Assembly: GCA_038087875.1 (NCBI GenBank)
Contig: CM075988.1
Location: forward strand, 24,492,001 to 24,556,000
DNA from: Malacoraja senta
Lineage: Eukaryota
Length of the DNA stretch: 64,000 bases
Reading direction: 5' to 3'
Part shown: positions 837 to 47,088 of the stretch, in pieces
How positions within the stretch are numbered: position 1 is the stretch's first letter
How the letters are laid out: every line of letters begins with the position of its first letter
Notes under the pieces: model-generated
Seen by the model: the letters and a program-made list of their open reading frames with translations, nothing else
Told to the model about the DNA's origin: nothing
Database searches by the model: none
Translations under genes and position numbers: made by a program

Positions 837-1105
837 CCCCGTGGTCACCCCTGTCAACTGACCTCAGTCAGGCAAACGACAACAAACAGAGACAGCAGCA
901 GAATTAACAACGAACGAACAACAACAGCTTGCAGCCTTAATGCAACCTCAGTCGCCGCAGCTTGGCGCCAACCCGGAGCATGCACCCTTTTTAGGGCGGC
1001 CACCTACGGATGTCGAACCGGATGGCGTCATCCTGCTGCAGCTGAATGTAAGGATTCAGCTGGAGGGCGTTACATAACTTCTGCTGCCTCAAATGCAAGA
1101 AGAAG
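837..1105 (+). mobile_element. Short non-autonomous retroposon (family C) with (GAA)n tail and 5'-truncated HDV-like ribozyme
   Basis: Direct repeat AACATTATCTGGACCT at 821-836 and 1106-1121; tail CAAGAAGAAG; internal hairpin CAGCTGAAT-GTAAGG-ATTCAGCTG at 1039-1062. Confidence 0.8.
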
Positions 1106-1206
1106 AACATTATCTGGACCTTTTCCAAGTTCAGAATATTGTACATTATATCGGGGTAACCAAAACAGAGTGTGGTCCCCTGGATAGACACAAAATGCCG
1201 GAGTAA

Positions 1207-2544: not shown

Positions 2545-3150
2545 CTGTGTTTGAGATAATTGGTCTCCAATAAACAAAACCATCTTCCTCCGTCACGCAA
2601 TACTCCAATTCACTTCCTATTCATTTTGGTGTTCCCAGGGCTACTTGATATCACACTTGAACAAATGCTGTCCAGGCGCCAAGGGCAATTGCTCACACTT
2701 CACCTCCAGAATTCAGTTCCTGTCTGCATTTACACCAGAGCTGCAATATCTGGTGCTGAGTGGTCCTAGCAGAACACATACTGAGCTTCAGTGAGCAGGT
2801 TATTGGTAGGCATGTGTTGTTCCATAGCAATATCAGTGACATTTTTCCATCATTTCACTGATGACTGAGAGTAGATTGATTGATCCTATTTTTGGTGGAC
2901 ATGACATACCTCGGCAATTTTACACATGGCCAGGTAGACGTAAGTGTTGTAATTGTTCCGGAGCGGCTTGGCTAGAGGTGCAATTACTTCTGAAGTGCAG
3001 GCTTTCAGCTCTGCAGCCCAGAAATTGTCTGGTCACGTAGCTTTTATTGTTTCCAGTGTCCTCACTTGATATTGCGATGAGTGAATCAAAATTGGCCGAT
3101 GCACCAGTAATGATGTCAAGCCCAGCAGGAGGCTGAGATCAATCATCCAC
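2545..3150 (-). mobile_element. Old, heavily degraded non-LTR retrotransposon RT fragment
   Basis: Minus strand shows eroded RT-like coding text (NLLTEAQY-like segment, frame-broken); family not firmly assigned. Confidence 0.45.
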
Positions 3151-6272: not shown

Positions 6273-6563
6273 CAAAAACACAAGGCAGGACACAGAAATA
6301 CCAAAATAAAGAGTAAAATGCTCAAAATCCTCAGCAGCATCATTGGTGGGAAAATTACATTTTTTCAGAACTGGGAACAGTTAGAGAGCCTTTTCCAACA
6401 AATAGAGTCAGGCTTTGATGGAGCAACATTAGTCAACGTTTCTTCATGAATAATGCGATCGGAATTTGCAATTTCATTTTCCAATTGATAGTTATAAATG
6501 ATTATATTTTTGTGTGATGCGGACCAAATGTTAAATGGAGTTAAGATCAGCCATGATGGACAA

Positions 6564-6871
6564 CACCATTACATCGATGATCCCATGGACGTCCCTGGCC
6601 AGGACCTGCCCCGAAAGCAGTGGACAACCCTTAACCGCTTGAGGACAGGCATCGGACGCTATGGAGTAGCGATGAAGAGGTGAGGCCTCGTGGACAGCGC
6701 CTCCTGCGAGTGTGGGGACCCAACACAGACAGTGGAGCACATAGTCACCAGTTGCCCCAAACACCGGCCACCGAATGGTGAACGAGGTCTGATTGACCTG
6801 GACGATGACACGTTGGCCTGGCTCGCCTCAATGGAGCTGCAGGTCTAAAAGACACACGACAGAAGAAGAAG
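6564..6871 (+). mobile_element. 5'-truncated Vingi/Ingi-clade LINE 3' end
   Basis: Translates PGQDLPRKQWTTLNRLRTGIGR...*GLVDSASCECGDPTQTVEHIVTSCP...LQV* (C-terminal CCHC knuckle); (GAA)n tail; TSD ATGATGGACAA at 6553-6563 and 6872-6882. Confidence 0.8.
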
Positions 6872-24749: not shown

Positions 24750-24802
24750 GGGGTGGGAAATTGCAACCTTCACGTGGTCCGCCCTGTTTCGACGAATGCA
24801 AT
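24750..24802 (+). ncRNA. Minimal HDV-like ribozyme fold
   Basis: P1 GGGGTGG/CCGCCCT, P2 ATTGCA/TGCAAT, P3 ACC/GGT, L3 TTCACGT, minimal P4 region with TTCG, J4/2 CGAA. Confidence 0.8.
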
Positions 24803-24895
24803 CAACCTGGCTGGCACAATCAAATAAGATCAAATAGAACAAGTTGTCCTACAACTTTAGGCTGTGCACGCCATACGCAAGAAGAAGAAGAAGAA
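24750..24895 (+). mobile_element. Short (GAA)n-tailed retroposon, family A
   Basis: Starts GGGGTGGG and ends CATACGCAAGAAGAAGAAGAAGAA; homologous to 46722-46860; no clear TSD. Confidence 0.85.
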
Positions 24896-46710: not shown

Positions 46711-46721
46711 TCTTTGGATTG

Positions 46722-46860
46722 CTTCTTCTTCTTGCGTATGGCGTGCACAGCCTAAAGTTGTAAGACAACTTGTTCTGTTTGATCTTCTGTTTGTGCACGC
46801 CAAGTTGATTGCATTCGTTGAAACAGGGTGGACCACGTGAAGGTTGCAATCTCCCACCCC
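46722..46860 (-). mobile_element. Short (GAA)n-tailed retroposon, family A, full length
   Basis: Perfect TSD TCTTTGGATTG(C) at 46711-46721 and 46861-46871. Confidence 0.9.
46807..46860 (-). ncRNA. Minimal HDV-like ribozyme fold
   Basis: GGGGTGG GA GATTGCA ACC TTCACGT GGT CCACCCT GTTTCAAC GAA TGCAATC; P1 (G-U at +1), P2 and P3 all pair. Confidence 0.85.
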
Positions 46861-47088
46861 TCTTTGGATTGCAATAGTGGGATATGAACTCTTGTCTCCA
46901 GATCAATAGTCCATGCTTCTAGTTTAGTGAAGTTTAGAGATACAGCGAGGAAACTAGATACTAATTCAGTAATCTAACTATAATGTTACTGTGCCTTCAA
47001 TGGCAGAACAATGCAAGTTGTTCATCTACTTGTGCTGACTAATAACTCCGTATTTCTCACATTCACACAACACCTTATGGATTTAAAT

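What the first reader, a model, noticed from the sequence alone, without database searches (positions are those of the whole stretch)
46722..46860. 139-bp retroposon that is essentially a minimal HDV-like ribozyme plus a (GAA)n tail (family A)
Seen: the minus strand begins exactly at the TSD boundary with GGGGTGG-GA-GATTGCA-ACC-TTCACGT-GGT-CCACCCT-GTTTCAAC-GAA-TGCAATC. This gives the HDV nested double pseudoknot: P1 7 bp with a +1 G-U wobble, P2 7 bp, P3 3 bp, a 7-nt L3 whose C can pair with the G after P1 (P1.1), a vestigial P4, and C-GAA before the P2 3' strand. A hairpin AAGTTGT-CTT-ACAACTT and a CATACGCAAGAAGAAG tail follow, and the TSD is a perfect 11-12 bp. There are no pol III A/B boxes. 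Known: HDV-like ribozymes process the 5' ends of R2, RTE and L1Tc/Ingi elements. Inference: a promoter-less SINE-like parasite that cleaves its 5' end out of read-through transcripts and borrows a Vingi-type RT. I am not aware of this being described in chondrichthyans, but could not search.
Basis: partly seen in the sequence, partly recalled or inferred. Interest (0 to 1): 0.92.

Follow-up and report, generated by a model that had tools for sequence, protein, structure and literature searches.

The report
Mini retroposon headed by HDV-like ribozyme
A 139-base jumping element, present in thousands of copies in this animal genome, begins exactly with a stripped-down self-cutting RNA fold of the hepatitis-delta type that it shares with the larger jumping genes it probably depends on.

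Summary
On the minus strand, 46860-46722 is a 139-nt retroposon with a 12-bp target-site duplication. It has at least 2,409 exact tail matches and 1,280 exact ribozyme-core matches in the 1.94-Gb genome.

Its first 54 nt fit the HDV nested double pseudoknot. This is not chance. Three LINE families of the same genome (B, C, D) and two LINE families in unrelated metagenome records (E, F) carry the same architecture at their first base. Across 18 sequences, 97.2% of pair cells are paired, against 41-51% when the partner is slid. 15 of 18 pairs change on both sides, including P1.1.

Family A lacks P4 and is closest to family D. The two share 16 of 17 core bases, an ATG at the J4/2-P2 junction, and 15 of 16 terminal bases before (GAA)n.

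It is best read as an ultra-short bipartite non-autonomous LINE, like the R2 SIDEs and NARTc. It probably cuts its own 5' end out of host transcripts.

Not shown here: catalysis, absence of a promoter, and the "Vingi" label. I rate it a new variant of a known kind, of moderate interest.

The parts
46861..46872 (-). Upstream copy of the target-site duplication, GCAATCCAAAGA
   Evidence: (12 of 12 identical to the downstream copy)
46854..46860 (-). P1 5' strand GGGGTGG (element nt 1-7). The proposed cleavage site is 5' of G46860.
   Evidence: It pairs with 46825-46831. 5 of 7 P1 pairs change on both sides across families.
46845..46851 (-). P2 5' strand GATTGCA (nt 10-16)
   Evidence: Perfect 7-bp complement to 46807-46813. 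All 7 P2 pairs change on both sides in alignment A3.
46832..46844 (-). P3 (ACC/GGT) closing the 7-nt loop L3, TTCACGT (nt 17-29). L3 C22 is the P1.1 partner of G37.
   Evidence: P1.1 column pair: CG 12, UA 5, UG 1, none unpaired. L3 positions 1 (T) and 5 (C) are invariant and position 6 (G) is nearly invariant.
46825..46831 (-). P1 3' strand CCACCCT (nt 30-36)
   Evidence: The older subfamily has CCGCCCT, which keeps the pair as U-G.
46814..46824 (-). J1/4 G37, the 6-nt linker TTTCAA where other families carry a P4 hairpin, then C44 (candidate catalytic C) and GAA (J4/2)
   Evidence: Alignment A1/A3 places the P4 hairpins of families B-E in a gap of family A. A C lies 4 nt before P2' in 16 of 18 rows and 3 nt before it in the other two.
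46807..46813 (-). P2 3' strand TGCAATC (nt 48-54). A47 plus T48 G49 form an ATG.
   Evidence: The same junction ATG opens the LINE ORF in families C and D. In A it opens only 20 codons.
46739..46802 (-). Structured middle domain: an 11-bp stem (nt 59-69 with 112-122) enclosing the hairpin AAGTTGT-CTT-ACAACTT (nt 90-106). Its origin is unknown.
   Evidence: RNAfold MFE. No similarity to LINE families B, C or D.
46722..46740 (-). 3' terminal motif CATACGCAAG followed by the (GAA)n tail
   Evidence: 15 of 16 bases match the end of LINE family D, CATTCGCAAGAAGAA. Tails in 31 copies are 8-19 nt.
46711..46722 (-). Downstream copy of the target-site duplication. Its first G is shared with the tail.
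24750..24895 (+). Second family-A copy, from an older subfamily. Its ribozyme is at 24750-24803 and has one A-C mismatch in P2.
837..1107 (+). Family-B non-autonomous element, made of the LINE 5' 212 nt plus the 3' end. This copy is 5'-truncated inside L3. It has a (GAA)3 tail and a TSD (AA)CATTATCTGGACCT.
6563..6870 (+). 5'-truncated 3' end of a family-C LINE: the C-terminal Cys/His motif of the ORF, a short 3' UTR and a (GAA)n tail
   Evidence: 92% identical to L070 element nt 2799-3098

Best explanation
Family A is an ultra-short, bipartite, non-autonomous LINE derivative, of the same type as the R2 'SIDE' elements. It has three parts.

1. A 54-nt HDV-like ribozyme without P4 sits at its very first base.
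2. A stem-loop domain of about 65 nt follows. Its origin is unknown.
3. The element ends in a 16-nt motif plus (GAA)n, which it shares with a compact APE+RT LINE family of the same genome (family D).

Proposed mechanism (inferred):
- The element has no recognisable promoter of its own and is transcribed as part of host or read-through transcripts.
- The ribozyme folds and cleaves 5' of G1. This gives an RNA that starts exactly at the element's first base and is headed by a compact double pseudoknot.
- The LINE protein recognises the 3' motif and (GAA)n repeats, and copies the RNA into a new site by target-primed reverse transcription. This leaves TSDs of about 8-14 bp.

Shown here: the fold is conserved and covaries; the LINEs carry it at base 1; 5' ends coincide with G1; the 3' ends are shared.

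Inferred: catalysis in the P4-less form, dependence on read-through transcription, and which LINE supplies the protein.
For: (1) Retroposon. The DNA search gave 2,930 first-look candidates, and the 40 that were scored are 98-100% identical. There are 1,280 exact matches to a 28-nt ribozyme-core word and 2,409 to a 28-nt tail word. The tail-only sites inspected are older subfamily copies or truncated copies (5 full copies, 1 truncated, 1 interrupted, of 7).

(2) 5' ends. 31 copies were examined and 25 have a TSD. The TSD abuts G1 in 15. It lies +1 or +2 in 3, ambiguous because the next target bases are G. It lies -1 or -2 (extra bases) in 7.

(3) Same architecture at base 1 of LINEs.
- Family B continues into an APE ORF.
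- Family C is 3.1 kb, with TSDs flanking G1 and (GAA)n in L068, L070 and L071.
- Family D is about 3.3 kb.
- Families E and F come from metagenome records. The motif lies 190-210 nt upstream of the ORF match in 4 of 19 loci whose match reaches the N-terminus.

(4) Covariation. On MAFFT alignment A1 (15 rows), 98.9% of cells pair against 40-52% when slid, and 13 of 18 pairs change on both sides. On A3 (18 rows), 97.2% pair against 41-51%, 15 of 18 pairs change on both sides, 0 of 500 shuffles reach the covariation score, and P1.1 is CG 12, UA 5, UG 1.

(5) Rfam. Family B aligns end to end to RF02682, an HDV ribozyme model, at 32.6 bits and E = 0.014, with no non-canonical pair flagged. Family A aligns from model position 1 at G46860, at 16.5 bits.

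(6) Link of A to D.
- 16 of 17 identical bases at the same element positions, 14-30.
- The same J1/4 G-TT.
- The junction ATG that opens the ORF in C and D.
- The D end CATTCGCAAGAAG in 359 exact sites, one of which reads CATAC as A does.

(7) The RNAfold MFE of the whole element forms P1 and P3 and leaves both P2 strands free.

(8) P4-less HDV-like ribozymes cleave in vitro. This was shown for minimal drz and theta ribozymes (passages read of bioRxiv 10.1101/2023.06.13.544163).

(9) Changes between the old and young A subfamilies inside the ribozyme fall in unpaired positions (8, 42, 45), or turn U-G into U-A (position 32).
Against: - No cleavage assay exists, and no RNA evidence was obtained.
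- Family A scores far below Rfam's gathering threshold (16.5 against 44 bits). Even family B is below it (32.6 bits).
- No LINE carrying the A-type ribozyme itself was found. Among 18 sites where the A ribozyme is followed by non-consensus sequence, none looked like a LINE. That pattern would pass only about a quarter of true LINE copies.
- Only the last 16 nt plus the repeat are shared with family D. The middle 65 nt match no LINE.
- A 5' end at G1 is also what a transcription start at base 1 would give. In L1Tc the same 77 nt are both promoter and ribozyme (abstract of PMC3383444).
- 7 of 25 junctions carry 1-2 extra bases. 3 copies have non-G bases at positions 1-2.
- The sequences for families C-F were found with a structure descriptor, which biases towards paired cells. 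The alignment itself was made by MAFFT without structure, and the hits lie where LINE 5' ends are expected.
Confidence: 0.75

Rival explanations
1. The fold is real and inherited from the LINE 5' end, but in its P4-less form it no longer cleaves. The 5' end at G1 would then be set by transcription initiation from an internal promoter overlapping the first ~55-80 nt, as with Pr77/L1TcRz of L1Tc. The fold would be kept for another reason, such as 5' protection, protein binding or full-length cDNA completion.
For: - In L1Tc and NARTc the same first 77 nt act as both an internal promoter and an HDV-like ribozyme (abstracts of PMC3383444 and PMC3185411).
- A family with thousands of copies and several successive subfamilies usually needs a portable promoter.
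- A double-pseudoknot fold is said to give cap-like protection against 5' exonucleases in R2-based templates (passage of PMC13708176).
- Family A has lost P4 and scores only 16.5 bits against the Rfam model.
Against: - No pol III boxes and no tRNA head are present.
- All core features needed for catalysis are kept in A: the G-U at +1, L3 U and G, the P1.1 pair, and C44 followed by GAA.
- P4-less HDV-like ribozymes are active in vitro.
- The helices stay intact from the old to the young subfamilies.
Confidence: 0.17
2. A is mobilised not by family D but by another (GAA)n-tailed LINE (family B or C, or an unseen one). Alternatively it is an independent lineage whose 5' and 3' ends only converge on the LINE features.
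For: - All LINE families seen end in (GAA)n with related last bases: B CAAATGCAAGAAGAAG, C ACACGACAGAAGAAG, D CATTCGCAAGAAGAA.
- No LINE with the A-type head or A-type body was found.
Against: D is the closest at both ends: 16 of 17 bases in the core, and 15 of 16 at the terminus against 13 of 16 for B. D is also abundant and little diverged, with 359 exact 29-nt 3' ends. This rival changes the partner, not the nature of the element.
Confidence: 0.2
3. The HDV-like fit is a chance resemblance in a short GC-rich retroposon head.
For: The strict descriptor hits about 0.05 times per simulated 64-kb window. That implies on the order of a thousand chance hits in 1.9 Gb. The Rfam score for A is not significant (E = 1.7).
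Against: Six sequence families share the architecture at the same place, with 15 of 18 pairs changed on both sides and 97% of cells paired against 41-51% in slid controls. One family reaches E = 0.014 against an HDV ribozyme model.
Confidence: 0.02

Closest known systems
R2 SIDEs (Short Internally Deleted Elements) of Drosophila (Eickbush and Eickbush 2012, PMC3414825; abstract and outline read)
   Same: Both are non-autonomous elements made of the LINE's 5' HDV-like ribozyme joined to a LINE 3' end. Both are propagated by target-primed reverse transcription using the autonomous element's protein.
   Different: - SIDEs insert site-specifically in rDNA and are described as rare.
- Family A is dispersed on all large contigs and has at least 2,400 copies.
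- A's ribozyme lacks P4.
- A's partner is an APE-type LINE, not the restriction-like-endonuclease R2.
- Only 16 nt plus the repeat are shared at the 3' end.
NARTc / L1Tc with L1TcRz, and other Pr77-bearing trypanosomatid elements (PMC3185411, PMC3383444, PMC4035085; abstracts read)
   Same: [quoted passage not shown]
   Different: - The host there is a protist, and the ribozyme is 77 nt.
- The same sequence is a proven internal promoter there. No promoter evidence exists here.
- The tail there is poly(A)-type, whereas here it is (GAA)n. This point is recalled and was not checked.
Bipartite non-autonomous LINEs of the Vingi and RTE clades, such as Vingi-1_EE derivatives and Bov-A (Kojima 2018, PMC5786205; passages read)
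   Same: These are ORF-less elements that keep only the extreme 5' end and the 3' end of a compact single-ORF LINE. The LINE size is similar: Vingi-2_Gav is 3,128 bp, against 3.1-3.3 kb here.
   Different: [quoted passage not shown] The clade of the present LINEs was not determined. A's middle part is not LINE-derived.
Minimal (P4-less) HDV-like ribozymes: drz-Mtgn-1 and theta ribozymes of gut phages (bioRxiv 10.1101/2023.06.13.544163; passages read)
   Same: Both have the double-pseudoknot core with the P4 domain missing. Such RNAs self-cleave in vitro and are inactivated by changing the catalytic C to U.
   Different: Those are found next to phage tRNA genes and trim tRNA 3' trailers. In that study's first motif search of two bacteriophage-genome databases, the hits came only from phages of human gut metagenomes. 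Here the setting is the 5' end of an animal retroposon.
Mammalian CPEB3 ribozyme
   Same: From memory only: a similar 7-nt L3 and a C-GAA junction before P2'.
   Different: It is a single-copy intronic ribozyme with a P4 helix. No Rfam match other than RF02682 was reported for this region at E up to 10. Overlapping matches within one clan are merged, so this test is weak.

Membership tests
HDV-like (delta-like) self-cleaving ribozymes | Nested double pseudoknot: P1, P2 (crossing P1), P3 and P1.1 in the canonical order | tested here: met
   Segments are in canonical order in A-F. 97.2% of 324 pair cells are paired. 15 of 18 pairs change on both sides. Slid controls give 41-51%.
HDV-like (delta-like) self-cleaving ribozymes | Cleavage-site G at +1, typically in a G-U wobble closing P1 | tested here: met
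   G1-U36 in the window copy. Column pair counts are GU 13, AU 2, GC 2 and other 1, of 18 rows.
HDV-like (delta-like) self-cleaving ribozymes | Cytosine in J4/2 a few nt before the P2 3' strand (the general acid) | tested here: met
   A C lies 4 nt before P2' in 16 of 18 rows. It lies 3 nt before in the other two, both degraded family-C copies. In A it is C44 followed by GAA. 7 of 30 copies read CAAA.
HDV-like (delta-like) self-cleaving ribozymes | P4 helix between J1/4 and J4/2 (present in most members, absent in 'minimal' ones) | tested here: not met
   A has only the 6-nt linker TTTCAA. B (CTGAC/GTCAG) and E (GCATTTC/GAAATGC) have clear hairpins. P4 is not required for activity in minimal drz.
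HDV-like (delta-like) self-cleaving ribozymes | Site-specific, divalent-ion-dependent self-scission, abolished by changing the catalytic C to U | not testable with these tools
   This needs a bench assay.
Rfam RF02682 (HDV-F-prausnitzii model) | Score at or above the gathering threshold of 44 bits | tested here: not met
   A scores 16.5 bits with E = 1.7. B scores 32.6 bits with E = 0.014. C and D gave no hit at E up to 10.
Canonical SINE (pol III, tRNA / 7SL / 5S head) | Small-RNA-derived head with internal A and B boxes | tested here: not met
   ARAGORN finds 0 genes. No A or B box within 2 mismatches on either strand of two copies. No Rfam small-RNA hit.
Bipartite non-autonomous LINE / SIDE | The 5' end and the 3' end both derive from an autonomous LINE, with no ORF | tested here: inconclusive
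   The 5' end has the same architecture, 16 of 17 identical core bases and the junction ATG shared with family D. At the 3' end, 15 of 16 bases plus (GAA)n are shared. Against this, nt 55-120 match no LINE, and no LINE with an A-type head was found. Family B in the window does meet the definition, with a 212-nt 5' part plus the 3' end.
Vingi clade of non-LTR retrotransposons (for the partner LINEs) | Compact single ORF with APE and RT and no RNase H domain | tested here: met
   Elements of 3.1-3.3 kb. Pfam gives Exo_endo_phos, Exo_endo_phos_2 and RVT_1 only, in the 5 ORF pieces scanned. Homologues are about 1,000 aa with the same domains. The published description is in passages of PMC13708176.
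Vingi clade of non-LTR retrotransposons (for the partner LINEs) | Phylogenetic placement of the RT with named Vingi references, sister to Ingi | not tested
   No named reference sequences (Repbase or Dfam) are reachable with these tools. One NCBI homologue is auto-named 'from transposon X-element', which does not identify a clade.

The most novel reading that the evidence does not exclude
A whole clade of compact, (GAA)n-tailed APE-type LINEs, possibly Vingi, uses a 5' HDV-like ribozyme. In some families the P2 3' strand carries the ORF's start codon. The clade has relatives named from teleosts, a tunicate, a starfish and insects. From such a LINE, a 139-nt parasite evolved whose 54-nt P4-less ribozyme is still catalytically active. 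If so, it would be the first natural minimal delta-type ribozyme known in a eukaryote. It would also be one of the smallest retroposons that define their own 5' end by RNA catalysis rather than by a promoter.
Probability: 0.5. Interest if true: 0.68.

Novelty: new variant of a known kind. Interest (0 to 1): 0.55.

Why it matters
- It would extend HDV-like ribozyme processing to another group of LINEs. [quoted passage not shown]
- It offers a reason why some LINE clades so readily spawn 'head plus tail' non-autonomous derivatives: a self-cleaving head removes the need for a portable promoter.
- It provides a natural minimised (54-nt, P4-less) delta ribozyme from an animal genome. Thousands of copies and several sister families are available for comparative work.
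- It gives a compact 5' and 3' module set for LINE-based template RNAs.
- In two LINE families the start codon sits in the J4/2-P2 junction. This makes the link between ribozyme folding and translation initiation directly testable.

Tried and rejected
- RNA evidence. The look-up of sequencing runs listed no holder on record as RNA. 17 small-share rows marked 'RNA? (a guess)' and one raw RNA run were listed. Nothing can be said about expression, RNA ends or occurrence in other organisms.
- A LINE with the A-type head. A pattern asking for the A ribozyme end followed by non-A bases gave 18 sites, all of which look like A copies with small deletions. A pattern asking for the A terminus preceded by non-A bases gave 21 sites. 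20 look like A copies with indels, and one is a family-D LINE end.
- Earlier findings of this scan. There was nothing near the place or by sequence. The word search gave only unrelated cases.
- MAFFT alignment A4 (16 rows) put the P2 3' strands out of register, so it was not used. In A3 two rows (E_L131, F_L107) are partly out of register in P1, because their J1/2 and helix lengths differ. They were kept and count as unpaired cells.
- Whole-element RNAfold gives a z-score of only -1.44. Nested folding energy alone does not single the element out.
- Clade naming by literature. Kojima et al. 2011 and Ruminski et al. 2011 are not held. A search combining Vingi with shark, skate and related words listed 15 papers, none of them containing 'Vingi'.
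- Literature searches for prior description found ribozyme-bearing non-autonomous elements only for R2 and L1Tc-type elements. They found no paper linking HDV-like ribozymes with Vingi; the one co-occurrence, PMC13708176, mentions the ribozyme for R2 only. Repbase and Dfam could not be consulted.

Full report
OBSERVATION

On the minus strand the element runs from 46860 to 46722. It reads GGGGTGG-GA-GATTGCA-ACC-TTCACGT-GGT-CCACCCT-GTTTCAA-C-GAA-TGCAATC. A structured middle part follows, and it ends in CATACGCAAGAAGAAGAAG. The 12-bp duplication GCAATCCAAAGA flanks it.

RNAfold on the whole 139 nt forms P1 and P3 and leaves both P2 strands single-stranded.

There is no tRNA. There is no A or B box within two mismatches. 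Rfam gives only a weak hit, to an HDV ribozyme model (RF02682, 16.5 bits, E = 1.7); the hit starts at model position 1 on G46860.

A strict structural descriptor hits this element once in the window and twice in 40 simulated windows. So the fold alone is not proof.

IT IS A HIGH-COPY RETROPOSON

The genome holding the window is 1.94 Gb in 6,182 contigs. A DNA search gave 2,930 first-look candidates, and the 40 that were scored are 98-100% identical. Exact 28-nt words occur 1,280 times for the ribozyme core and 2,409 times for the tail.

Seven tail sites were inspected, six of them lacking the exact core word:
- five are full copies, four of them of an older subfamily (J1/2 often AA, P1 3' strand CCGCCCT, a different middle part);
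- one is truncated;
- one is interrupted by another repeat.

A second, older copy lies at window 24750-24895.

I examined the 5' junction in 31 copies. 25 have a detectable TSD.
- The TSD abuts G1 in 15.
- It lies at +1 or +2 in 3, where the next target bases are G, so the call is ambiguous.
- In 7 copies, 1-2 extra bases sit between the TSD and G1. In L017, L024 and the L019/L030 pair these are GT. L019 and L030 are one insertion on duplicated DNA.
- Three copies have A or TA in place of the first G or first two Gs.

Tails are 8-19 nt long.

THE SAME FOLD HEADS THE LINES OF THIS GENOME

The window holds two other (GAA)n-tailed elements.

The first, at 837-1107, is family B. This copy is 5'-truncated within L3. 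Full copies elsewhere begin GGGGCTC-AT-GTTGTCG-ACC-TCCCCGT-GGT-GAGCCCT-G-TCAA-[CTGAC-CTCA-GTCAG]-G-C-AAA/GAA-CGACAAC. This is the same plan with a real P4 hairpin. In many contigs the first 212 nt continue into an ORF with an AP-endonuclease N-terminus. The 271-nt window element is therefore a head-plus-tail deletion derivative of a LINE.

A protein search with that APE region found more distant LINE families at 43-48% identity. I fetched 24 stretches and scanned them.

- Family C (L064, L065, L068, L070, L071, L085) reads GGGGGAG-AC-AAAGACA-GCC-TTTACGC-GGC-CTCCTCT-A...-TGTCTTT.
- Family D (L066, L067, L069, L084) reads GGGAGAG-AT-GTCGGCA-ACC-TTCTCGT-GGT-CTCTCCT-G-TTAA...-C-AGA-TGCCGAT.

In both, the motif lies just upstream of the ORF. 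Family C elements are 3.1 kb. Their TSDs flank G1 on one side and a (GAA)n tail on the other in L068, L070 and L071. The window's 6563-6870 is a truncated 3' end of this family. Family D is about 3.3 kb and ends ...GCTTCATTCGCAAGAAGAA.

Pfam finds only endonuclease and RVT_1 domains in the ORF pieces scanned, and no RNase H. Database homologues are about 1,000 aa, with the same domains, on contigs of 3.1-3.5 kb. The named ones come from teleosts, a tunicate, a starfish, an aphid and a moth.

I also scanned public metagenome records with a profile of these homologues. 19 loci have a match that reaches the N-terminus. Four of them (L141, L131 and L109 as family E, and L107 as family F) show the motif 190-210 nt upstream of the ORF match. 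The other 15 showed none with my descriptor. Many of them are degraded or cut.

COVARIATION

MAFFT was run without structural information. It put P1, J1/2, P2, P3, L3 and the P2 3' strand of 15 sequences from families A-D into register.

On that alignment:
- 98.9% of 270 pair cells are standard pairs, against 40-52% when the 3' partner is slid by 1-3 columns;
- 13 of 18 pairs change on both sides;
- the covariation score is 0.739, against 0.13-0.19 for the slid controls.

With families E and F added, for 18 rows of which two are partly out of register:
- 97.2% of 324 cells pair, against 41-51% when slid;
- 15 of 18 pairs change on both sides, including all seven of P2;
- 0 of 500 shuffles reach the observed covariation score.

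The single P1.1 pair, L3 position 3 with the first base after P1, is C-G in 12 rows, U-A in 5 (family C) and U-G in 1. It is never unpaired. L3 positions 1 (U) and 5 (C) are invariant, and position 6 (G) is nearly invariant. A C lies four bases before P2' in 16 of 18 rows.

Family B aligns end to end with the Rfam HDV model at 32.6 bits, E = 0.014, with no non-canonical pair flagged. This is below the curated 44 bits.

One caveat applies. Families C-F were located with a pairing descriptor, which favours paired cells. However, the hits lie exactly where LINE 5' ends are expected, and family B was found by sequence similarity alone.

WHAT FAMILY A IS

In the alignment, A differs from its relatives by a clean absence of the P4 hairpin: G-TTTCAA-C-GAA in A, against G-TCAA-[hairpin]-G-C-AAA in B and G-TTAA-[...]-C-AGA in D.

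A is closest to D on four counts:
- 16 of 17 identical bases at the same element positions, 14-30;
- the same P3 and a nearly identical L3;
- the ATG made of the last J4/2 base and the first two P2' bases;
- the 3' terminus.

In families C and D that ATG opens the LINE ORF in frame with the endonuclease domain (MSLPRL... and MPITRN...). In A it opens only 20 codons.

At the 3' end, a 29-nt word of family D occurs 359 times. It reads CATTCGCAAGAAG in 99 of the 100 sites listed, and CATAC, as in A, in one. So 15 of A's last 16 non-repeat bases, plus the (GAA)n repeat, are shared with D.

The middle 65 nt of A match none of the LINEs. No LINE carrying the A-type head was found.

Between the old and young A subfamilies, the changes inside the ribozyme fall in unpaired positions (8, 42, 45) or convert U-G to U-A (position 32). 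The middle part changed at six or more sites plus an indel.

MECHANISM

The best-supported reading has three steps.
1. The element is transcribed within longer host transcripts.
2. The 54-nt head folds and cleaves 5' of G1.
3. The freed RNA is copied into new sites by the protein of a (GAA)n-tailed LINE, most likely family D, which recognises the short 3' motif and repeat.

Established here are the conserved, covarying fold, its position at base 1 in both LINEs and derivatives, and the shared termini. Cleavage itself is inferred. The inference rests on all core features being kept and on published activity of P4-less HDV-like ribozymes (passages). Read-through transcription and the identity of the partner are also inferred.

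The main rival is that G1 is a transcription start set by an internal promoter overlapping the fold, as in L1Tc (abstracts), with the fold kept for protection or protein binding (passage). This rival is not excluded.

COMPARISON AND NOVELTY

HDV-like ribozymes at LINE 5' ends are established. So are head-plus-tail non-autonomous derivatives: the R2 SIDEs (PMC3414825), NARTc, and the bipartite RTE and Vingi derivatives (PMC5786205). The kind is therefore known.

Four things look new:
- the P4-less form in an animal retroposon; in the study read, minimal forms were found in phages;
- the very small size and high copy number;
- the presence of the ribozyme across several families of a compact APE+RT LINE group, which the 2018 survey does not list among ribozyme-bearing clades if it is Vingi;
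- the start codon embedded in the J4/2-P2 junction.

The clade name remains unverified. My searches found no prior description, but Repbase, Dfam and the two key subscription-journal papers could not be read.

Noticed in passing
L065:801-808, L070:891-898, L066:820-827; window 46812-46814 (minus strand): In LINE families C and D the ORF's first ATG is formed by the last J4/2 base plus the first two bases of the P2 3' strand. The ribozyme and the start of the coding region therefore overlap. Family A keeps this ATG but only 20 codons follow. Families B, E and F lack it.
   Followed up: partly
L033-L062, L076-L080, L086 (many small unplaced contigs of the genome): Dozens of contigs hold the same family-B LINE copy behind an identical upstream flank (...ttttatataacacat|AGGGCTC..., with G1 changed to A). 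The same 352-codon truncated frame is present each time. About 1.3-1.4 kb upstream lies a second partial copy whose ribozyme has lost J4/2 and the P2 3' strand by an internal deletion. It looks like a LINE fragment amplified as part of a tandem or segmental repeat, not by retrotransposition.
   Followed up: partly
L017, L019/L030, L024 (and possibly L020): 5' junctions of family A: In three independent insertions the same two extra bases, GT, lie between the TSD and G1. L020, which has no detectable TSD, also has GGT before G1. This could reflect non-templated addition, or RNAs that start 2 nt upstream.
   Followed up: no
L066:723-754: The first 16 nt of this family-D LINE (GGGAGAGATGTCGGCA) are directly duplicated in front of the element.
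   Followed up: no
window 837-1107: This family-B derivative starts inside L3 of its ribozyme, so it was 5'-truncated on insertion, yet it has a clear 14-16-bp TSD. The ribozyme head is therefore not needed for integration itself.
   Followed up: partly
L093 (G000:C1:96600630-96601000): A family-A copy is interrupted between its middle part and its hairpin by an unrelated repeat of about 200 nt.
   Followed up: no
TSDs of family A (L001-L030): Most TSDs can be extended by 1-3 purines (AG, AA or GA) into the (GAA)n tail. This suggests microhomology between the nicked target and the repeat tail at priming.
   Followed up: no
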